Below, in pieces: positions 29,201-36,077 of a DNA stretch of 64,000 nt. The DNA is taken from sequence record NC_019517.1; one strand, written 5' to 3'. Below the pieces are notes generated by a model, which worked only from the letters and a program-made list of their open reading frames with translations, made no database searches and was not told where the DNA came from. Both the position numbers and the translations under genes were made by a program. Source of the stretch: Escherichia phage FV3. The stretch's first letter is position 1, and each line of letters opens with the position of its first letter.

Positions 29201-29277
29201 TGGTCTCCACGGAGTGATTCGAACACTCGACCTCCTGATCCCAAATCAGGCGCTCTACCAAGCTGAGCTACGCGGAG
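29201..29277 (-). tRNA. tRNA-Pro: tRNA-Pro (anticodon UGG)
   Basis: Hand-folded cloverleaf: 7-bp acceptor stem, T-arm with TTCGAAT loop, anticodon loop UUUGGGA, encoded CCA. Confidence 0.7.
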
Positions 29278-29288
29278 TATTTATAATT

Positions 29289-29363
29289 TGGTGGCCCTGG
29301 GTGGAATTGAACCACCGTCTGGCGATTATGAGTCGCTTGCTTGAACCTTCCAGCTACAGGGCC
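29289..29363 (-). tRNA. tRNA-Met: tRNA-Met/Ile2-type (anticodon CAU)
   Basis: Cloverleaf with perfect acceptor stem GGCCCTG/CAGGGCC, anticodon loop CUCAUAA, encoded CCA. Met versus lysidine-Ile cannot be distinguished. Confidence 0.65.
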
Positions 29364-29364
29364 A

Positions 29365-29440
29365 TGGTGCTGATAGCAGGACTCGAACCTGCAACCTATT
29401 GATTACAAATCAATTGCACTACCAATTGTGCTACATCAGC
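29365..29440 (-). tRNA. tRNA-Thr: tRNA-Thr (anticodon UGU)
   Basis: Cloverleaf: acceptor GCTGATG/TATCAGC, D-arm GCAC/GTGC, anticodon stem ATTGA/TCAAT with loop UUUGUAA, T-loop TTCGAGT, encoded CCA. Confidence 0.7.
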
Positions 29441-29447
29441 AAAAAGG

Positions 29448-29544
29448 TGCTAGGTGATGGAATCGAACCACCTATGTATTCAACGACTACCTCGTCTATT
29501 TTCAGGATTAAAAATCCTCGCCCTTGCCAAAGGGCTTACCTAGC
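29448..29544 (-). tRNA. Atypical tRNA-like gene (97 nt; possible UUU/Lys anticodon, about 30-nt extra arm, no encoded CCA)
   Basis: Perfect 7-bp acceptor (GCTAGGT/ACCTAGC), canonical D-arm (GCCC-TTTGGCAA-GGGC) and T-arm (GGTGG-TTCGATT-CCATC), but anticodon stem is 4 bp plus a mismatch and an unusually long region lies between anticodon arm and T-arm. Confidence 0.4.
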
Positions 29545-29642
29545 TCAGTATGTTGACCATGTTGCTAGTCGGCGATGACGACTGTAACATTTGATAATCC
29601 GGTTCTGCTTCCGGCTTTCGCTTAATTACAAGGTCAACAATA

Positions 29643-29733
29643 TGGCTGAGGGTAATGGAATCGAACCATCATCGAGTCATCCTCAACGGGACGGTTTTCA
29701 AGACCGCTTGAGCACCATTGCTCCCTACCCTCA
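29643..29733 (-). tRNA. tRNA-Ser: tRNA-Ser (anticodon UGA), class II
   Basis: 91-nt cloverleaf with long variable arm; anticodon stem GCGGT/ACCGT, loop CUUGAAA; encoded CCA. Confidence 0.65.
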
Positions 29734-29847
29734 TTTATAAACAATACTGATAATGACACTGATTTTCGAGCAGTTAGTGACTAGTATAAACGACGATAAA
29801 TATCAATGCCATTATCTGTATGATTTATGCATTTAAAAATATAAATT

Positions 29848-29934
29848 TGGTGGGGAGTGGTGGAGTCGAACCACCCGAGTCGCAATGACAATAGATTTAC
29901 AGTCTACACCGCTACCTCTACGGGATAACTCCCC
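29848..29934 (-). tRNA. tRNA-Tyr: tRNA-Tyr (anticodon GUA), class II
   Basis: 87-nt cloverleaf; acceptor GGGGAGT/ACTCCCC, anticodon loop CUGUAAA, T-loop TTCGACT, encoded CCA. Confidence 0.65.
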
Positions 29935-29938
29935 AATT

Positions 29939-30013
29939 TGGCACCCCGTACTGGACTCGAACCAGTGTCAACGGCTTAGAAGGCCGCTGCTTTATCCACT
30001 AAGCTAACAGGGC
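29939..30013 (-). tRNA. tRNA-Arg: tRNA-Arg (anticodon UCU)
   Basis: 75-nt cloverleaf; anticodon stem GCGGC/GCCGT, loop CUUCUAA; T-loop TTCGAGT; encoded CCA. Confidence 0.65.
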
Positions 30014-30109: not shown

Positions 30110-30451
30110 TTAACTATTGCCAACAGGTTGTATTTCTGTGGTAAACGGCATAAAAGGTGCTGGTTTTTCAGCCTCTTCCACTACCACCTCTTCTTCCTCT
30201 TCACCAAACATCTCATCATATTCTTCCTGCATTCGGTCTGCCTTATCAAGAACATACTCTGCAATGCTTTGACGAATATTTTGTTTGGTTTTCGGATCCA
30301 ACATCAGCTCTCTTAAAACTTTGTGAGCTTCTGGAACCATCGCTATAAAAGATTCCTTCATGTCAAGAATGTTCTTCTCTAGCTGAATGGCGTTGGACTC
30401 CTCTTTCAGAGGTCTGCCTCTACGGCGACGCTTTTTGGTTGTATCCGCCAT
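30110..30451 (-). CDS. Small AT-hook-like basic/acidic protein (113 aa)
   Basis: Likely start at ATG 30451 (MADTTKKRRRRGRPLK...) with GGAGG SD; ORF-track start at 30508 is a TTG inside the -35 hexamer. N-terminal RGRP motif with Arg/Lys run, Glu-rich C-terminal tail. Confidence 0.45.
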   Translation of the reverse strand: MADTTKKRRRRGRPLKEESNAIQLEKNILDMKESFIAMVPEAHKVLRELMLDPKTKQNIRQSIAEYVLDKADRMQEEYDEMFGEEEEEVVVEEAEKPAPFMPFTTEIQPVGNS

Positions 30452-30479
30452 GTTTCCTCCATTATCACGTGATAGGTGG

Positions 30480-30508
30480 ATTTTATCACGGCAAATACTG
30501 ATTGTCAA
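30480..30508 (-). promoter_or_regulatory. Sigma70-type promoter for AT-hook protein gene / tRNA transcription unit
   Basis: Minus strand TTGACA (30508-30503), 17 nt, TAAAAT (30485-30480), then SD and ATG at 30451; a GC hairpin (30511-30539) abuts the -35. Confidence 0.55.
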
Positions 30509-30796
30509 GTTCGCCGCAGGGTGGTATTCCCTGCGACTTGCCTAGCGTCCTAGACCAACAAGACCCAACAAGTGGGTTACCAGAGACCCATTACCGCGCT
30601 TTGGCTCGACCTTATTACAGGTTGGCTGGGGTCACATCGTCATGTGCTGGCTGCCCCTACCATTTTAAGTGTGGTGCACTATCAAGCCCTCTAAGGGGAA
30701 CTCAGACTTCTCCGAACCCTGTTTCAAAGCATCCGGAGATAAAGCCATCAAACTCATCTTTAAATTGGATATTCATCATGATACACGAAAACAACC

Positions 30797-31039
30797 TCAT
30801 TGTAAAGCACAAATAAATAAAACATACTTAATTTGTTTGTTATCGGGCTCAGGGTAGAAGTAGAAGATCTTGCTATCACCAATCTGAACACCACCATCCC
30901 AACAACATAAACCATAACCCGTATTCATACAAGCTAAGTCGTTGGCAAAATCTATTGCATCATCTAGTGCACGAAATTCACCTTCATCTTCTAAATAATC
31001 CTCATTCATGGAACGGAAAACGAGCTTAACCTTAAACAT
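30797..31039 (-). CDS. Hypothetical protein (80 aa)
   Basis: Small acidic ORF in early minus-strand region. Confidence 0.3.
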   Translation of the reverse strand: MFKVKLVFRSMNEDYLEDEGEFRALDDAIDFANDLACMNTGYGLCCWDGGVQIGDSKIFYFYPEPDNKQIKYVLFICALQ

Positions 31040-31314: not shown

Positions 31315-31893
31315 TCAACGTTCGTAGTAAATCTTATTCAACATTACCTCATCGTTTGCAGAAAGGATATCAAGATATGCATCACCAAATCTGCCTGCAA
31401 CAACCTCTGCATGATACATCACTTCGTCAACATCGTCAAGAGTGATAACCGGATGACCATATCTTTCTGAATATTGCCTCAGGGTGCGATGTAACGAGTC
31501 GTCATCATATGCAGACTTTTTAATATCACAAACACGACGAATGGCCTTGATGTCGAAAAAGCCTGTGCGATACCATCCAAGAAAAAAGTTCCGTGTGGTG
31601 TCAACATCTACATCAATACCATCAAGAACCTTATCTACAAGATAGCTGTCATCCTTTGGACCAGCGTCCTTAGTGCGAATGTAGTTGCCATCTTTTCCAG
31701 GCGATAGCTCCTTCTCATCACCAACCTGCATGCCATCATTTGGCGGTGTTAGCCACTTATCCGGATGCTTACGATCACGAGCGTTAGAATGATTACGCTG
31801 GAAACCTGGCTTCCACTTGAAAGTTTTCTCCATCTGTTCTTCATTCTGATAACGTTTTGCAATCTTTTCGCGGTCATCTTTGCGTGAACTCAT
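31315..31893 (-). CDS. Hypothetical protein (192 aa)
   Basis: ORF downstream (minus sense) of the structured noncoding region; charged, no recognisable motif. Confidence 0.35.
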   Translation of the reverse strand: MSSRKDDREKIAKRYQNEEQMEKTFKWKPGFQRNHSNARDRKHPDKWLTPPNDGMQVGDEKELSPGKDGNYIRTKDAGPKDDSYLVDKVLDGIDVDVDTTRNFFLGWYRTGFFDIKAIRRVCDIKKSAYDDDSLHRTLRQYSERYGHPVITLDDVDEVMYHAEVVAGRFGDAYLDILSANDEVMLNKIYYER

Positions 31894-31989
31894 AGCTGCC
31901 TCCTCTTCAAGTTATAGAAAAACTCACTGTATCGCTTTGTAACGAGCTTTTCTATCAAACTGGTGCGATTGCCTTACTTGGTAGAGTTT

Positions 31990-32270
31990 ACACAGCTGTG
32001 GGGAGATTTAGGAGCCTTCTTGTCCGTTTCCACACATAAACTTTAACCAAACTCGCGCGGGAGTCTCTCAACCGACTCCTTACGGCGCTGGCAAGCTTTC
32101 GTCGGTGGTCCACATTAGTGCTCGGCCTTTGGCCTGCGCTATCGCTTCGCTCCCACACATGTTAACAGTCCTGCATGTATGCACTCCTGTTATTGTGTGC
32201 ACTATGGAGGCCCGGCATCTCGCCCCTCGTAGGCGAGTGCCAATGAGGGGCCGACACTACCCATAATAAG
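31990..32270. other. ORF-free GC-rich structured segment (candidate ncRNA or replication-associated structure)
   Basis: About 280 bp richer in GC than surroundings, with multiple nested inverted repeats (ggagtc-N8-gactcc, ctcgcc-N7-ggcgag, gcccctc...gaggggc, ggcctttggcc); no ORF of 60 aa or more on either strand. Confidence 0.3.
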
Positions 32271-32294
32271 TAATAAATTTAAAACATGGTACTT

Positions 32295-32396
32295 AGGATC
32301 TAGTATATTCTACATAAGTTAAGTATATGTACTTTAGTACCATAAGTACTAGATCTTTTATTTTTATTATTTAGTTATTTTAGTTATATTCTTTAT
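32295..32396. repeat. AT-rich tract with inverted repeats (GATCTAGTA / TACTAGATC) and short direct repeats
   Basis: Inverted 9-mers at about 32305-32313 and 32347-32357; then AT-rich run with ttagttat direct repeats (32357-32396); resembles a DNA-unwinding element. Confidence 0.4.
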
Positions 32397-32479
32397 GTGT
32401 CCGTATTGCGGACAGTTAGTGTCCGTATTACGGGCAGATGTGCCCGCGTGACGGACAGTAGTGTCCGTATCACGGACAG
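32397..32479. repeat. Four tandem palindromic 19-bp repeats (iteron / operator-like array)
   Basis: GTGTCCGTATTGCGGACAG (32397), GTGTCCGTATTACGGGCAG (32419), GTGCCCGCGTGACGGACAG (32440), GTGTCCGTATCACGGACAG (32461); each is a dyad GTCCG-N5-CGGAC; spacing 22/21/21 bp. Confidence 0.7.
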
Positions 32480-32553
32480 TTACTATCCTCTGCTCTTGGG
32501 TGGACATAAAACATACGAATCCTTATAGTACAGATATTTAAGTTTTTACTGGT

Positions 32554-32904
32554 CTAACCAGTTGTTGACATTAGAATAACCTCTTCTGGTGGCAAAACTT
32601 TGGAAAATGTGCATCTTTTACCTCTCCCTTGTGTGGATATTTCAACCACTCCTGCACATTCTAAAGTTTTAACGCACGCTGCTGCTTTTGTTTTCTTTAT
32701 CCCAACATCTGCTGCAATTTTCCTTGTGCTTGGTGTGAAGCGTGAATTTCCTCCAAGCTTATACCAGTTGTGCAGGTAGCAGTATACGATCTTGTCATAT
32801 AAGTCAAGAACAACAACCTCCCCGGTTGTGTCATTCAAAACTTTTGACATAGACAGTATTTCAAGGGGGACTTTAAGATATAGCAGCTTATCCCCATCTT
32901 TCAT
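32554..32904 (-). CDS. Putative winged-helix / HTH DNA-binding protein (116 aa)
   Basis: Helix-turn-helix-like segment (STRKIAADVGIKKTKAAACVKTLECAGVVEI); gene ends about 75 bp from the palindromic repeat array. Confidence 0.4.
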   Translation of the reverse strand: MKDGDKLLYLKVPLEILSMSKVLNDTTGEVVVLDLYDKIVYCYLHNWYKLGGNSRFTPSTRKIAADVGIKKTKAAACVKTLECAGVVEISTQGRGKRCTFSKVLPPEEVILMSTTG

Positions 32905-32951
32905 ATCTCCTGATTCTCCTTGTGTGGCAATTTTCTTTAAAATAGCAGGGA

Positions 32952-33506
32952 TTACTCCCCGCTGTCAATAGCAAGACTCATTGCAATACGGTATGCCTCT
33001 TCTAATGGTAAGAGTCTCCCCCACACATCCCAACCGACATCAAACTGCCTGCCAAACAACTGCTGTGTGGTTCCGTGAGCATGACCGAACAGTTGGACTG
33101 ATCCGTGAGGCTTTCTGTTCCACTTTGCAAACTGGTAATGGCTCATACAGATCAAATTCTTGTTGTGGCGAAGCTCGTAATAATCTACAACCTCATGACC
33201 GAACTCTTTCATAATTCTGACAGTCGTCCTTGTGTCATGGTTACCACGAACAAGAATAATATGTCCGTTCAACATATTTAGAACATCTGGGAGCAATTTG
33301 TTGATATTCTTATCCTTAGTGCATGCAATATCGCCCAAGTGAAACACAGTGTCTTCCGGTGACACAACAGAGTTCCACTCGGCGATGATTCCTGCATTCA
33401 TACTGTCAAGATTGCGATCATACTGAGATCTGTGTTTTTGACATGAATCAAACTCCATGACTCGCTGGTGGAGAAAGTGTGTATCGCTTGTTACAAAATA
33501 TTTCAT
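32952..33506 (-). CDS. Calcineurin-like metallophosphoesterase (candidate RNA 2',3'-phosphatase)
   Basis: 184-aa ORF with metallophosphoesterase motifs (SDTHF..., GDIA, GNHD, GHAH); adjacent to P-loop kinase gene. Confidence 0.55.
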   Translation of the reverse strand: MKYFVTSDTHFLHQRVMEFDSCQKHRSQYDRNLDSMNAGIIAEWNSVVSPEDTVFHLGDIACTKDKNINKLLPDVLNMLNGHIILVRGNHDTRTTVRIMKEFGHEVVDYYELRHNKNLICMSHYQFAKWNRKPHGSVQLFGHAHGTTQQLFGRQFDVGWDVWGRLLPLEEAYRIAMSLAIDSGE

Positions 33507-33513
33507 ACATCCC

Positions 33514-33924
33514 TCATTTTAGTTTAATGCAGTTTTTAAGCTCACGCTCCATACGGTCCACAACCCTATTTGGAACATCATGAATGCTCTTATTACCGTG
33601 GCGGTTTTCAACCACGATCACAGTATAACTATACCCATGACTGATTGCCATGTCAACATATTCTTGCACATGTTTTTCTTTTGTAAACGTATTACTTACC
33701 ACGACACGGTCGTATCCCATACGCATCATATCTTCTACGTTATCTTTGCACCATTTTGCTGCAAGTGTTACTTTACTTGCATCCCAGTTGTAATTTCCAT
33801 CGTCGTCGTACCAGAACATGTCGTTCTCAAAATGTGGGTACAGCCCCTCTAAAGATAGTGCATTTGCCAGTGTTGATTTGCCAGAACCTGGTAGACCACG
33901 CACGATATATAGCATTTTAGACAT
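33514..33924 (-). CDS. P-loop polynucleotide kinase-like protein
   Basis: 136-aa ORF with Walker A (GLPGSGKST) at N-terminus, resembling the kinase domain of polynucleotide kinase. Confidence 0.55.
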   Translation of the reverse strand: MSKMLYIVRGLPGSGKSTLANALSLEGLYPHFENDMFWYDDDGNYNWDASKVTLAAKWCKDNVEDMMRMGYDRVVVSNTFTKEKHVQEYVDMAISHGYSYTVIVVENRHGNKSIHDVPNRVVDRMERELKNCIKLK

Positions 33925-33952
33925 AGTATTCCTCCGTTTTAATTTTAATGGT

Positions 33953-33981
33953 AGTATACATAACTCTTTTGTTCATTTCAA
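33953..33981 (-). promoter_or_regulatory. Sigma70-type promoter for kinase / phosphoesterase operon
   Basis: Minus strand TTGAAA (33981-33976), 17 nt, TATACT (33958-33953), followed by GGAGG and ATG 33924; lies in the divergent region opposite the plus-strand early operon. Confidence 0.5.
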
Positions 33982-34024
33982 GTGTTGACACGAGTTTATT
34001 TGTGTGGCAAGATAGAGTGACAAA

Positions 34025-34960
34025 ATGGCAAACGAGGAATGTATGATGAAGTATTTTAATGCAGATGATTTGGTGGATAAAGGTCTTGTAACCAGTCGGT
34101 ATTATCCAGATCTTGGATTAAAGATCTATAAATATGCCAGAAAAGTATTCTACAACAATTTATGGCATTTGTCTCCGCGTTTACTAGAGTGCCGAGGAAT
34201 TGTTGTCGGTAATGAAGGAAATGTTGTGGCATGGCCCTTCACAAAAGTGTTTAACTTGGGAGAAAATTCCACCAACCTGCCTGACAATAAACTTGTGACG
34301 GCGGTAGAGAAAAAGAACGGATTCCTTGGTGTGGTATCATCTCACAAAGGTGAACTGTTGTTCTCAACAACCGGGTCTCTTGATTCTCCATATTGTAACC
34401 TTGCAAAGGAAACAATCCAGGAGCAATGTGGTAATTTAGATCTTATCAAGAAGGTTATGGGCCATGAAAACATGACATTCATGTTTGAAATTTGTCACCC
34501 TTCAGATCCGCATATTGTTCAGGAAGATCATGGCGCATATTTGATAGGTTTCAGATATAATGATTCTGGAATAATGCTACCAGAAGCAGCTTTAGATGGG
34601 ATTGCCAAATACCTTGGTGCAAAACGTCCTCACACTGTGCGTGAAATTCCGTTCAGCTATGCAAAAGAATTAGCTGCAGAAACAAGAGGTGAAGGGTATA
34701 TGATTCGTAAGCCTTACTACCCTTATGATCTGCAGCTGAAGATCAAGTCTCCATACTATTTGGCACGGAAGGCCGTAATGAGGGGTAAAGCTTGGAAGAT
34801 TTGGGATAATGATATCTTTAAACGTGTTGACGAAGAGTTTTACGGCATGGTAAACTTCATTCGTAGAAACTACACAGAAGATGTGTGGAATTGCCTCCTG
34901 GAGCAGGAACGCCGTGAGATACTTGACTGCTATTTCCACAACGAGGACTATATGCAATGA
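34025..34960 (+). CDS. Putative ATP-dependent RNA ligase-like nucleotidyltransferase
   Basis: 311-aa ORF with ligase-type motifs: motif I lysine (EKKNGFLG), motif IV (EGYMIRK), motif V (LKIKSP). True start may be ATG 34043 or 34046 after GAGGA SD. Confidence 0.45.
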   Translation: MANEECMMKYFNADDLVDKGLVTSRYYPDLGLKIYKYARKVFYNNLWHLSPRLLECRGIVVGNEGNVVAWPFTKVFNLGENSTNLPDNKLVTAVEKKNGFLGVVSSHKGELLFSTTGSLDSPYCNLAKETIQEQCGNLDLIKKVMGHENMTFMFEICHPSDPHIVQEDHGAYLIGFRYNDSGIMLPEAALDGIAKYLGAKRPHTVREIPFSYAKELAAETRGEGYMIRKPYYPYDLQLKIKSPYYLARKAVMRGKAWKIWDNDIFKRVDEEFYGMVNFIRRNYTEDVWNCLLEQERREILDCYFHNEDYMQ

Positions 34961-35307
34961 AGAAGTTGATTGTGTGGCTGGATGACTTGAGAGATCCGTC
35001 AAATTATGGGCTCCCAGATGCTCTTTGGCTAAAGAATTCCTCTGAGTTTATGGATTTTATTAACGATAAGGGAAAGCTCTACAGGCGCGTTTCTGAGTGG
35101 CACATGGACAACGACCTTGGAGAGGTATTTGAAGGGTACGATTGCCTATCTATGCTGGAAGAAAAATTTGTATTTGGTAAGCCTCCTGTAGTTGACAACG
35201 TGAAGATTTTCGTGCATACTTCTAACCCATCAGCCGCTCGTAAATTCATGCTTGCTGCTGACTCGTTTAAAAAGTTTGGAATAGAGATTAAACAAAACAT
35301 CTACTGA
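34957..35307 (+). CDS. Hypothetical protein (116 aa)
   Basis: ORF translationally coupled (ATGA overlap) to the ligase-like gene and immediately upstream of the Sir2-like gene. Confidence 0.3.
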   Translation: MKKLIVWLDDLRDPSNYGLPDALWLKNSSEFMDFINDKGKLYRRVSEWHMDNDLGEVFEGYDCLSMLEEKFVFGKPPVVDNVKIFVHTSNPSAARKFMLAADSFKKFGIEIKQNIY

Positions 35308-35315
35308 GGACACTT

Positions 35316-36077
35316 ATGCGACGACTGATCATTATCTCCGGTGCTGGTTTGAGCGCTGAATCTGGTATCCCAACTTTCCGATCTGGTGGCACTGCAATGT
35401 GGGAGAATTTCAGCATCGATGAGGTGTGTAACATCCACACCTTTGCCAAGAACTACTATAAGGTACATGACTTTTACAATGCACGGCGTGTAGCTTTGGG
35501 GAGTGTTGAGCCTAACCTTGCACATCTCCGGATCGCTGAGTGGTATTCCCGCTGGTCTGGTCGTGTGATCAACCTGACCACCAATGTAGATGATTTGCTG
35601 GAGCGTGCTGGTGTAAAACATGAAGATATTTTGCATGTCCACGGGTATTTGCCAGAAATAGTTTATGAGGATGATGAAGGGAATGACGTCATTAAAGACA
35701 TTGGATACTCTGAGGTAGATGCAAGCGAGTATACTTGGGTCAAGCCTAATGTAGTGTTCTTCGGAGAAGTAGCTCCAAAGTATGTAGACATGTATGACCT
35801 GTTGACTTCTCTGACGAGCAATGATATGGTTATCCTTGTAGGGTGCTCCAACACAGTTATCAATTTTAACTGGGAGCTATTCCCTGCCTGTAATAAGGGG
35901 ACTAAACTACTGATCGTTAACAAATACGACTCACAGCATTTAGGGGAGAATGGCATTTCACGTAGTGACATTTACCAGTATGAGGATCGCGGAATCCCAG
36001 TTTGGTTTAACGGGGCGGTTGACGCTTTCTCTGATAAAACATTCATTGACATCGTAGAAAACTTTATGGAACTGTAA
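35316..36077 (+). CDS. Sir2-family (sirtuin-like) NAD-binding protein lacking zinc ribbon
   Basis: 253-aa ORF with sirtuin Rossmann-fold motifs in order: GAGLSAESGIPTFRSGG, TTNVDDL, catalytic-His motif HVHG, VVFFGE, ILVGCS, LLIVN; no CxxC...CxxC zinc-binding pairs. Confidence 0.65.
   Translation: MRRLIIISGAGLSAESGIPTFRSGGTAMWENFSIDEVCNIHTFAKNYYKVHDFYNARRVALGSVEPNLAHLRIAEWYSRWSGRVINLTTNVDDLLERAGVKHEDILHVHGYLPEIVYEDDEGNDVIKDIGYSEVDASEYTWVKPNVVFFGEVAPKYVDMYDLLTSLTSNDMVILVGCSNTVINFNWELFPACNKGTKLLIVNKYDSQHLGENGISRSDIYQYEDRGIPVWFNGAVDAFSDKTFIDIVENFMEL

What the first reader, a model, noticed from the sequence alone, without database searches (positions are those of the whole stretch)
31894..32553. 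660-bp ORF-free region with four tandem palindromic repeats, an AT-rich unwinding-like tract and a GC-rich structured segment
Coding density elsewhere is very high, yet this stretch has no ORF of 60 aa or more on either strand. It holds four tandem copies of a 19-bp dyad-symmetric site (GTGTCCGTATyrCGGrCAG, core GTCCG-N5-CGGAC) at 21-22 bp spacing (32397-32479), which would place bound dimers on one face of the helix. Next to them lie an AT-rich tract with inverted 9-mers (32295-32396) and a GC-rich segment with nested hairpins (31990-32270). Iterons plus an AT-rich element is the classic replication-origin layout; alternatively this is an operator array controlling early transcription, with the GC-rich part as a structured ncRNA. 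A winged-helix-like protein gene (32554..32904) ends 75 bp away and is a candidate binder.
Basis: partly seen in the sequence, partly recalled or inferred. Interest (0 to 1): 0.8.

Follow-up and report, generated by a model that had tools for sequence, protein, structure and literature searches.

The report
Likely replication origin of rV5-like phages
This gene-free stretch of an rV5-like E. coli phage looks like a lambda-type replication origin (four binding sites for the small DNA-binding protein encoded next door, then the most easily melted DNA in the genome), joined to a conserved folded GC-rich element that small phage-like E. coli plasmids also carry next to their own origins.

Summary
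The window is a Vequintavirus (rV5-like) genome. 31894-32553 is its largest ORF-free stretch.

- **Repeats:** four TGTCCG-N5-CGGACA dyads lie 21-22 bp apart. In the complete rV5 genome this site occurs nowhere else.
- **Composition:** the adjacent AT tract is the lowest-GC 100 bp of that genome. The GC-rich part is the second highest.
- **Constraint:** array, AT tract and GC part change 3-4 times more slowly than third codon positions.
- **Comparative evidence:** the same dyad array occurs in nine unrelated viral contigs. Each time it sits inside a lambda-O-like initiator gene, in the order winged helix, array, AT-richer stretch. The window has the same polarity.
- **Reading:** a lambda-type origin cassette. 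Its initiator is reduced to a 116-aa DNA-binding protein, and the array lies outside the gene.
- **GC-rich segment:** non-coding, with no Rfam match. It is homologous to an element in 13-kb phage-like E. coli plasmids, placed in the same order (element, AT-rich, iterons), and one helix shows compensatory changes. Its role is unresolved.

Nothing here shows binding or replication initiation. rV5 also has a second origin-like region outside the window.

The parts
32554..32904 (-). Gene for a 116-aa stand-alone winged-helix protein (rV5 gp075/ORF79 homologue), the candidate iteron binder. It has the DNA-binding domain only.
   Evidence: PHROG 12838 'replication initiation protein' at E = 1e-79. 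Weaker hits to initiator PHROGs 8102, 428 and 270. Pfam DUF6945 26.9 bits (cut-off 28) and HTH_36 24.6 bits (cut-off 25). PDB 4ro3 at E = 1.5e-6. Found only in the genus Vequintavirus.
32501..32529 (+). Sigma-70 promoter-like site (TGGACA, 17 nt, TATAGT) 21 bp from the array, pointing antisense into the winged-helix gene.
   Evidence: The -10 hexamer is kept in all relatives and reads TATAAT in the divergent L008 group. The -35 hexamer varies. The count of such sites in the region is no higher than chance, so this is a lead only.
32481..32503 (.). Variable spacer between the array and the conserved end of the gene region.
   Evidence: The whole stop-to-array interval (32481-32553, alignment columns 1-73) diverges 0.205 between the window and the L008 group, the same as third codon positions at 0.20-0.28. 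Most of that variation lies in columns 51-75, i.e. this spacer.
32397..32480 (.). Iteron array: four dyad sites TGTCCG-N5-CGGACA (32398-32414, 32420-32436, 32441-32457, 32462-32478), spaced 21-22 bp, i.e. two helical turns.
   Evidence: Unique in the rV5 genome. Relatives carry 4, 3 or 2 copies. Half-sites are conserved while the central 5 nt vary. Divergence 0.059 against 0.20-0.28 at third codon positions. The same dyad array lies inside O-like initiator genes in 9 IMG/VR contigs.
32276..32396 (.). AT-rich tract, the candidate DNA-unwinding element. It holds two GATC sites, inverted 9-mers (32297-32305 / 32347-32355) and one perfect oriC-type 13-mer GATCTTTTATTTT (32352-32364, + strand).
   Evidence: Lowest-GC 100 bp of the window and of the rV5 genome. 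Nearly invariant in relatives: 0 of 125 positions differ from rV5, divergence 0.056 from the L008 group. The only perfect 13-mer in the window; 25 of 20,000 shuffles of the tract produce one. No sigma-70 promoter found.
31960..32275 (+). GC-rich structured non-coding element. Module A is 32049-32159, with helix 32071-32076 / 32101-32106 around an invariant 24-nt loop. A terminal hairpin is 32209-32252. CCACACA motifs lie at 32030-32036 and 32152-32159.
   Evidence: Not coding: no frame has an excess of synonymous changes, and the annotated ORF78 has a stop codon in phage naam. Constrained: divergence 0.081. No Rfam family. Homologue in 13-kb E. coli plasmids. 3 of 6 helix pairs carry compensatory changes, and 2 more lie in the terminal hairpin (read). 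One copy per genome. The strand given is the likelier folding strand, not a shown transcript.
31894..31959 (-). Leader of the downstream 192-aa gene, with a 12-bp-arm hairpin (31914-31925 / 31944-31955) and a GAGGAGG ribosome-binding site.
   Evidence: Inverted repeat I8. Almost invariant in relatives.
31315..31893 (-). 192-aa protein of unknown function, directly downstream. Like the rest of the module it is restricted to the genus.
   Evidence: PHROG 12226, unknown function. No Pfam or PDB match. tblastn finds it only in Vequintavirus. The AlphaFold model is unusable, pLDDT 38.

Best explanation
The stretch is a lambda-type origin-of-replication cassette.

Proposed mechanism:
1. Dimers of the 116-aa winged-helix protein encoded just upstream (in the - strand direction) bind the four phased dyad iterons.
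2. The resulting nucleoprotein complex destabilises the adjacent AT tract, which is the least stable DNA of the genome and carries an oriC-type 13-mer.
3. The phage's T7-like primase-helicase and polymerase then enter at the melted DNA.

It differs from lambda in two ways. The initiator is reduced to its DNA-binding domain, and the iterons and AT tract lie just outside the reading frame instead of inside it.

The GC-rich element on the far side of the AT tract is a conserved, folded, single-copy cis element belonging to the same cassette. Its most likely role is origin-associated: a priming or helicase-entry signal in the unwound strand, or a structured transcript that runs into the origin.

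Shown here: the anatomy, uniqueness in the genome, purifying selection, the recurrent association of this dyad array with O-like initiator genes, and conserved pairing in the GC element. Inferred: protein binding, melting, helicase entry, and every role given to the GC element.
For: 1. The dyad with up to 1 mismatch occurs only in this array in the 137,947-bp rV5 genome. The flanking 100 bp are the genome's lowest in GC (0.18).
2. Array (0.059), AT tract (0.056) and GC element (0.081) diverge far less than third codon positions (0.20-0.28) or the neighbouring spacer (0.205).
3. Half-sites are kept while the central 5 nt and the copy number (2-4) vary, as expected for a dimer-binding site.
4. 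A pattern scan of IMG/VR found 9 unrelated contigs with 3-7 copies of the same dyad at 20-25 bp spacing. Every array lies inside a 340-430 aa ORF, after an N-terminal winged helix and before an AT-richer stretch. These ORFs fall into 5 protein families. Several hit PHROG 'replication initiation protein' or 'O-like' families, including phrog_270, which the window protein also hits weakly. One of these phages has a RusA-like resolvase gene and another a DNA methyltransferase gene near the initiator, as in lambdoid replication regions.
5. The polarity winged helix, array, AT tract is the same in the window.
6. The array of contig L021 shares even its spacer variants (GTATT / GCGTG) with the window. 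Used as a query, it finds only Vequintavirus arrays among 50,697 phage records.
7. The only perfect GATCTnTTnTTTT in the window is in the AT tract.
8. The GC element has homologues in 13-kb E. coli plasmids and metagenome contigs. The order is always element, AT-rich stretch with GATCTATT, then iterons, although the iterons differ. Compensatory changes support its folding.
9. The published rV5 analysis could not locate an origin (PMC3606486).
Against: - No binding, unwinding or replication data exist.
- The protein is only 116 aa and lacks the C-terminal domain that lambda O uses to recruit the helicase loader.
- Its similarity to the initiators that contain arrays is weak: phmmer E > 0.9, hhalign probability 12%.
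- Other Vequintavirinae genera lack the whole module, so it cannot be the ancestral origin of the subfamily.
- rV5 has a second origin-like non-coding region at 104-106.6 kb, with about 11 CTGTT(T/C)AC repeats.
- Natural isolates do with 2 or 3 sites.
- No DnaA box lies in the locus.
- GC-skew changes in rV5 follow transcription direction only.
Confidence: 0.6

Rival explanations
1. Operator array. The winged-helix protein is a repressor or activator that binds the four sites to control transcription. Possible targets are read-through from its own operon into the downstream small genes and tRNA cluster, or the + strand promoter-like site beside the array, which would make an antisense RNA against its own gene. 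Replication starts elsewhere.
For: GenBank records call the protein 'putative transcriptional regulator'. It has a generic winged helix with weak hits to CodY, LexA and TrmB families. A promoter-like site TGGACA-17-TATAGT lies 21 bp from the array with a conserved -10. Initiators commonly autoregulate, so this role can coexist with an origin.
Against: The site occurs nowhere else in the genome, so there is no regulon. No sigma-70 promoter overlaps the array or AT tract, and promoter-like sites in the region are no more frequent than chance. The reading does not explain why the genome's most AT-rich DNA, with a 13-mer, sits beside the array. It also does not explain why the same array lies inside O-like initiator genes elsewhere.
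Confidence: 0.17
2. Helper-satellite cis signal. The conserved part, above all the GC-rich element, is a site read by phage-encoded machinery other than the initiator. An example is the pac site of this headful-packaging phage, which the 13-kb plasmid-like elements copy in order to be packaged or otherwise exploit the phage.
For: The GC element is about 84% identical between phage and plasmids, whereas their shared structural proteins are about 50% identical. It is single-copy in each replicon. Vequintaviruses package by headful from an unmapped pac site (PMC13211470; PMC3606486). The locus lies about 4 kb upstream of the terminase gene in the same transcription direction.
Against: Module content varies among the plasmids. 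One (CP134895.1) lacks the conserved loop of module A. The element always lies next to iterons and an AT-rich stretch, which fits an origin better than a pac site. No end-of-genome data point here. This reading does not account for the iterons.
Confidence: 0.12
3. Inactive relic. The module is the remnant of an O-like initiator gene with its internal origin, acquired from another phage and then broken by a frameshift or stop. It no longer has a role.
For: The array read in one - strand frame gives VRDTD/VRHAG/ARNTD, the same peptide repeat (VRNTD/VRHAD) as in the intact L021 initiator. The winged-helix ORF is out of frame with the array by 1 nt (coordinates). The module is absent from sister genera.
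Against: Array, AT tract and GC element are under purifying selection while the spacer between gene and array is not. The winged-helix gene is intact in all 117 genomes at 85-100% identity. No trace of a C-terminal initiator domain is found by tblastn in the GC-rich part.
Confidence: 0.06

Closest known systems
Phage lambda ori with O protein (lambdoid replication module)
   Same: Four tandem ~19-bp iterons, each with internal dyad symmetry, followed on one side by an AT-rich region. The initiator has an N-terminal winged helix and is encoded at the same place. The order DNA-binding domain, iterons, AT-rich region is the same. Transcription runs through the region. (The lambda features are from established knowledge; the window features.)
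   Different: The iteron sequence is unrelated (TGTCCG-N5-CGGACA). Array and AT tract lie outside the ORF. The protein is 116 aa with no C-terminal domain for a P-like loader. The AT tract is about three times longer. The replisome is T7-like, and no P or DnaB-loader gene is nearby.
O-like initiator genes with internal TGTCCG-N5-CGGACA arrays in uncultured viral contigs (IMG/VR loci L019-L027)
   Same: Identical half-sites, 20-25 bp phasing and 3-7 copies. A winged helix lies upstream and an AT-richer stretch downstream. L021 shares the spacer variants GTATT and GCGTG.
   Different: There the array is translated as the linker of a 340-430 aa protein. GC content is 49-70%. Protein sequence similarity to the window protein is not significant. 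None has the GC-rich element.
Iteron-type theta plasmid origins (RK2 oriV, pSC101, R6K, RSF1010)
   Same: Iterons, an AT-rich region with oriC-like 13-mers, and an adjacent GC-rich segment. RSF1010 additionally has hairpin single-strand initiation signals beside the origin (established knowledge).
   Different: No DnaA box in the locus. The binder is not a two-domain Rep protein. The GC-rich part here is about 300 nt, is built of several hairpins, and is shared with phage-like plasmids.
Non-coding region of 13-kb phage-like E. coli plasmids (NZ_CP020521.1 and relatives)
   Same: Module A and the terminal hairpin of the GC element are about 84% identical. The order is the same: element, AT-rich stretch with GATCT, iterons. 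An O-like HTH protein is encoded nearby.
   Different: Their iterons are different and vary from plasmid to plasmid (for example CGGTAATATTTACCG). The number and kind of hairpin modules vary. They are small circular replicons that also carry capsid and tail genes.

Membership tests
Lambda-type (O protein / iteron) phage origin | Tandem iterons with internal dyad symmetry, phased on one face of the helix | tested here: met
   Four 17-nt dyads at 22, 21 and 21 bp spacing.
Lambda-type (O protein / iteron) phage origin | AT-rich unwinding region directly flanking the iterons on one side | tested here: met
   32276-32396 has GC 0.19-0.20, the lowest in the window and in the rV5 genome.
Lambda-type (O protein / iteron) phage origin | Origin embedded in the initiator gene, between its two domains | tested here: not met
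   The array starts 75 bp after the stop codon and is in a different frame. It is embedded in all 9 IMG/VR relatives of the array.
Lambda-type (O protein / iteron) phage origin | Initiator with an N-terminal winged helix plus a C-terminal helicase-loader-binding domain | tested here: not met
   The protein is 116 aa, winged helix only. No P-like or DnaC-like gene is adjacent.
Lambda-type (O protein / iteron) phage origin | Initiator binds the iterons and replication starts there | not testable with these tools
   Needs EMSA or footprinting and origin mapping.
Iteron-type theta plasmid origin | DnaA box(es) in the origin | tested here: not met
   TTATNCACA occurs 4 times in the window, none within 31894-32553.
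Iteron-type theta plasmid origin | oriC-like 13-mer(s) in the AT-rich region | tested here: met
   One perfect GATCTTTTATTTT at 32352-32364, the only one in the window.
Transcription-factor operator array | Sites overlap or adjoin a promoter that they control; further sites usually occur elsewhere | tested here: inconclusive
   No promoter in the array or AT tract; one promoter-like site 21 bp away on the + strand. No other site in the genome.
Pfam HTH_36 / DUF6945 winged helix | Score at or above the curated gathering threshold | tested here: inconclusive
   DUF6945 26.9 bits against 28; HTH_36 24.6 against 25. The precomputed table lists PF13730 for cluster representatives.
Any described RNA family (Rfam 15) | Covariance-model match at the gathering score | tested here: not met
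   No match in 31800-32700. The best below-threshold hit is rli43, 20.7 bits against 100.
Structured RNA or single-strand element in general | Base pairs kept through compensatory changes | tested here: met
   Helix 32071-32076 / 32101-32106: 3 of 6 pairs changed on both sides between phage and plasmids; 97.5% of cells paired against 7-67% when the partner is slid. Within the genus alone the covariation term is about 0.
Phage pac site | Packaging series starts here (read-start pile-up, terminase binding) | not testable with these tools
   No virion-end data are available. The literature gives only 'headful, circularly permuted'.

The most novel reading that the evidence does not exclude
The GC-rich hairpin element is a cis-acting signal read by Vequintavirus-encoded replication or packaging machinery. 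The 13-kb circular E. coli elements carry capsid, tail and O-like initiator genes and place a copy of this element beside their own, diverse iterons. On this reading they are a previously undescribed family of satellites, or satellite-like phage-plasmids, of strictly lytic rV5-like myoviruses. The window locus would then be the helper-side original of the signal they hijack, attached to an origin whose initiator has been cut down to a bare DNA-binding domain.
Probability: 0.3. Interest if true: 0.8.

Novelty: new variant of a known kind. Interest (0 to 1): 0.62.

Why it matters
rV5-like phages are widely used in E. coli phage therapy and biocontrol collections, yet their origin of replication has never been located; the published skew analysis failed (PMC3606486). 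This locus gives a concrete candidate that is cheap to test.

It also suggests that one dyad iteron is used by at least six sequence-dissimilar winged-helix initiator families, in phages ranging from 44% to 70% GC. That is unusual for iterons, which normally change together with their Rep protein.

Finally, the structured element shared with 13-kb capsid-encoding plasmids points to a possible helper-satellite relationship for a large virulent myovirus. It offers a defined DNA signal with which to test that relationship.

Tried and rejected
- **Rfam:** a gathering-threshold scan of the whole window and permissive scans of 31800-32700 and 30450-30850 gave only tRNAs and chance-level hits.
- **Protein coding in the GC-rich part:** rejected. 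No frame has an excess of synonymous changes, and the annotated ORF78 has a stop codon in phage naam.
- **GC part as a decayed C-terminal initiator domain:** tblastn of nine array-containing initiators matches only the array itself.
- **Covariation within the genus:** too little divergence. The RNAalifold covariation term is 0.17 kcal/mol, and wobble-compatible and pair-breaking changes are about equal.
- **Distant homologues of the 116-aa protein:** a word-index search gave 5 hits, and a full HMMER scan of 1.84 billion representatives gave 10 with E up to 0.001. The informative ones are generic HTH_36/DUF6945 proteins.
- **AlphaFold:** the 116-aa and 192-aa proteins, run without alignments, gave pLDDT 38-39, so no fold search was made.
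- **Exact 28-mer from the AT tract in IMG/VR:** no hit.
- **19-mer of the module A loop in 100,044 species genomes:** 8 hits, all chance matches by covariance-model check.
- **DnaA boxes:** none in the locus.
- **Sigma-70 promoter for the GC element in the AT tract:** none found by scan or by eye.
- **Synteny in sister genera:** the module is simply absent.
- **Similarity between the second GC-rich region (30509-30796) and module A:** none by covariance model.

Full report
**What the window is.** The stretch 31800-32950 is 88-98% identical to 117 phage records, all of the genus Vequintavirus (rV5-like E. coli myoviruses). Both flanking genes are on the - strand. One is a 116-aa protein (32554..32904), annotated variously as 'putative transcriptional regulator', 'replication initiation protein' or 'DsrC like protein'. 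The other is a 192-aa protein of unknown function (31315..31893). In the - strand direction a tRNA cluster lies further downstream (29201-30013). Upstream lie genes resembling a tRNA-repair set, and then the divergence point of two large transcription units.

**Checking the observation.**
- The region is the largest stretch of the window without an ORF of 60 aa or more.
- The four repeats are real. The dyad TGTCCG-N5-CGGACA occurs nowhere else in the window with up to 2 mismatches.
- I assembled the complete rV5 genome from three fetches. With up to 1 mismatch the dyad occurs only in this array. This is also the only place in the genome with three or more half-sites within 200 bp.
- The adjacent 100 bp are the lowest in GC of the whole genome (0.18). 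The GC-rich part is the second highest (0.64). The window gives the same ranks.

**Conservation.** Alignments of twelve relatives show that the spacer between the gene's stop codon and the array is as variable as third codon positions: 0.205 against 0.20-0.28 between the window and the most divergent group. The array (0.059), AT tract (0.056), GC-rich part (0.081) and leader (0.095) change three to four times more slowly. All three non-coding elements are therefore under purifying selection. Copy number is 4 in most genomes, 3 in FFH2, A135 and one metagenome contig, and 2 in YN3. Half-sites are kept while the central five bases vary. That is the pattern expected for a site read by a symmetric dimer.

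**The decisive comparison.**
- A pattern search of IMG/VR for two adjacent dyads found nine contigs unrelated to rV5, with GC content 49-70%. Each has 3-7 perfect copies of TGTCCG-N5-CGGACA at 20-25 bp spacing.
- In every one the array lies inside a long ORF of 340-430 aa. The order is an N-terminal winged-helix segment, the array (translated as a peptide repeat), a short AT-richer stretch, then a C-terminal domain.
- These ORFs fall into five families with no detectable similarity to each other outside the array.
- Several match PHROG families named 'replication initiation protein' or 'replication initiation O-like'. One of these is phrog_270, which the window protein also hits weakly. One of these phages has a RusA-like resolvase gene and another a DNA methyltransferase gene near the initiator, as in lambdoid replication regions.
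- This is the lambda arrangement, in which ori lies in the linker of gene O. The polarity winged helix, array, AT-rich stretch is the same in the window.
- One contig (L021, 70% GC) alternates TGTCCGTATTGCGGACA with TGTCCGCGTGGCGGACA, the same spacer variants as the window. Used as a query, its array finds only Vequintavirus arrays among 50,697 phage records.
- In the window the array, read in one - strand frame, encodes VRDTD/VRHAG/ARNTD, like the VRNTD/VRHAD of L021. That frame is offset by one base from the winged-helix ORF and is separated from it by the neutral spacer.

The simplest history is that an O-like initiator gene with its internal origin was acquired and then split.

**The protein.**
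- It is an orphan outside the genus.
- It scores just under the Pfam thresholds for DUF6945 and HTH_36.
- It matches PDB 4ro3 at E = 1.5e-6, with a very weak match to the RepA N-terminal domain.
- Profile comparison with the array-containing initiators aligns the helix-turn-helix and wing in register but without significance (probability 12%).
- It has no room for a second domain. How a helicase would be recruited is therefore open. The phage's replisome genes (T7-like polymerase and primase-helicase) lie about 60 kb away.

**The AT tract.** It has no sigma-70 promoter. It holds the only perfect match in the window to the E. coli oriC 13-mer consensus GATCTnTTnTTTT, 33 bp from the first iteron. 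Only 25 of 20,000 shuffles of the tract produce one. It also has two GATC sites and nested inverted repeats. No DnaA box lies in the locus.

**The GC-rich part within the genus.** It is not coding and matches no Rfam family. Within the genus there is too little variation to test structure. An 18-nt deletion in rV5 and A135 removes the tip of one hairpin but keeps its CACACA/TGTGTG stem.

**The GC-rich part in plasmids.**
- A BLAST search of E. coli genomes and plasmids found homologues of two blocks, about 84% identical. They lie in the unannotated region of small circular plasmids of 13.2-13.7 kb, plus a 39.6-kb probable trimer. A metagenome scan added two more such elements.
- Between phage and plasmids, the helix 32071-32076 / 32101-32106 has three of its six pairs changed on both sides, while the 24-nt loop it encloses is invariant. 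The terminal hairpin 32214-32241 has two more compensatory pairs (read). The element is therefore a folded nucleic acid.
- The + strand is favoured as the folding strand. A T-G pair is conserved in all 12 sequences, and the RNA folding z-score is better on + (-3.97 against -2.10). As DNA the two strands fold equally well.
- A covariance model finds exactly one copy per rV5 genome and per plasmid.
- In every plasmid the order on that strand is hairpin modules, an AT-rich stretch containing GATCTATT, then iterons. This is the order in the window. The plasmid iterons are different and vary from plasmid to plasmid, and each plasmid encodes its own O-like HTH protein.

The element thus travels with origins but is independent of initiator specificity.

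**How it most likely works.**
1. The winged-helix protein binds the four phased dyads.
2. The complex opens the AT tract.
3. The phage helicase-primase enters.
4. The GC-rich element, on the other flank of the melted region, provides a fixed folded signal in the displaced strand or in a transcript. This could serve for priming or helicase entry, or to limit melting.

Only the anatomy, selection and comparative associations are shown. All the biochemistry is inferred.

**Rivals.**
- A pure operator function fits the annotation and the nearby + strand promoter-like site. It does not explain the uniqueness of the site, the AT tract, or the O-like context elsewhere.
- A packaging or other helper-satellite signal is a real possibility for the GC element. 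It is far better conserved between phage and plasmids than their shared structural proteins, which are about 50% identical, and the pac site of these headful phages is unmapped. It does not explain the iterons.
- A dead relic is contradicted by the purifying selection.

**Caveats.**
- The module is absent from sister genera.
- rV5 has another non-coding region (104.0-106.6 kb, outside this window) with similar hairpin modules and about eleven CTGTT(T/C)AC repeats. That region could be the main or a second origin.
- The published rV5 analysis found no origin by skew.

**Novelty.** Iterons plus an AT-rich tract is a known kind of origin, and databases already label the neighbouring gene 'replication initiation protein' by family transfer. 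What appears to be new:
- the identification of the array, AT tract and structured element as one cassette;
- the initiator reduced to its DNA-binding domain, with the origin outside the gene;
- the sharing of one dyad by several dissimilar initiator families;
- the link to 13-kb phage-like plasmids.

Noticed in passing
window 30509-30796: A second ORF-free, GC-rich stretch (GC 0.50-0.59) between two small - strand genes upstream of the tRNA cluster. It has no Rfam match, its folding is no better than shuffled sequence, and it is unrelated to module A by covariance model.
   Followed up: partly
window 29446-29544 (-): A 99-nt tRNA-like gene that ARAGORN reports with a four-base anticodon 'atcc' and no amino-acid assignment. 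Rfam scores it 35.5 bits as tRNA, and one GenBank record calls it tRNA-Lys. It could be an intron-containing or otherwise unusual tRNA.
   Followed up: no
window 32952-36077: A cluster resembling a tRNA-repair or anti-defence set: metallophosphoesterase and PNK-like kinase (- strand), then RNA ligase 1, a cREC receiver-like protein and a SIR2 protein (+ strand), around a divergent transcription point at about 33925-34025.
   Followed up: partly
L030 (NZ_CP020521.1, 13,689 bp); also L031-L034, L045, L046: Small circular E. coli 'plasmids' of 13.2-13.9 kb carry major capsid, baseplate and tape-measure genes and an O-like HTH protein. Two proteins are about 50% identical to rV5 ORF48 and ORF56. 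Their iterons are diverse, and they share the GC-rich element with Vequintavirus. They look like an undescribed satellite or phage-plasmid family tied to rV5-like phages. The 39.6-kb NZ_CP043822.1 is probably a trimer.
   Followed up: partly
L017 4013-6618 (rV5 104,013-106,618; outside the window): A 2.6-kb unannotated region of rV5 contains CCCACACA-flanked hairpin modules like those of the plasmids, and about eleven CTGTT(T/C)AC repeats at 105,480-105,640. It is a second origin-like or partition/packaging-like candidate. CCCACACA is over-represented genome-wide: 21 copies against about 4 expected.
   Followed up: partly
L019-L027 (IMG/VR contigs): At least five sequence-dissimilar O-like initiator families, in phages of 49-70% GC, carry arrays with the identical half-sites TGTCCG/CGGACA inside their genes. 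Iterons normally differ between initiator families, so this shared specificity is unexplained.
   Followed up: partly
L013, L014, L015; record MG065672.1: Several metagenome contigs and one GenBank record end or start within about 150 bp of the iteron array. This is probably an assembly break caused by the tandem repeat rather than a physical genome end.
   Followed up: no
phage records MG0656xx: Eighteen records named 'Campylobacter phage', flagged UNVERIFIED, are ordinary Vequintavirus genomes about 96% identical to this E. coli phage. The host label is doubtful.
   Followed up: no
window 31960-31990 and L030 12290-12310: A near-palindromic site (window GGTGCGATTGCCTTACC-like; plasmids GGTAATGCAATTGCACC) lies at the outer edge of the GC element in both phage and plasmids, in opposite orientation relative to the rest. 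It may be a protein-binding site.
   Followed up: no
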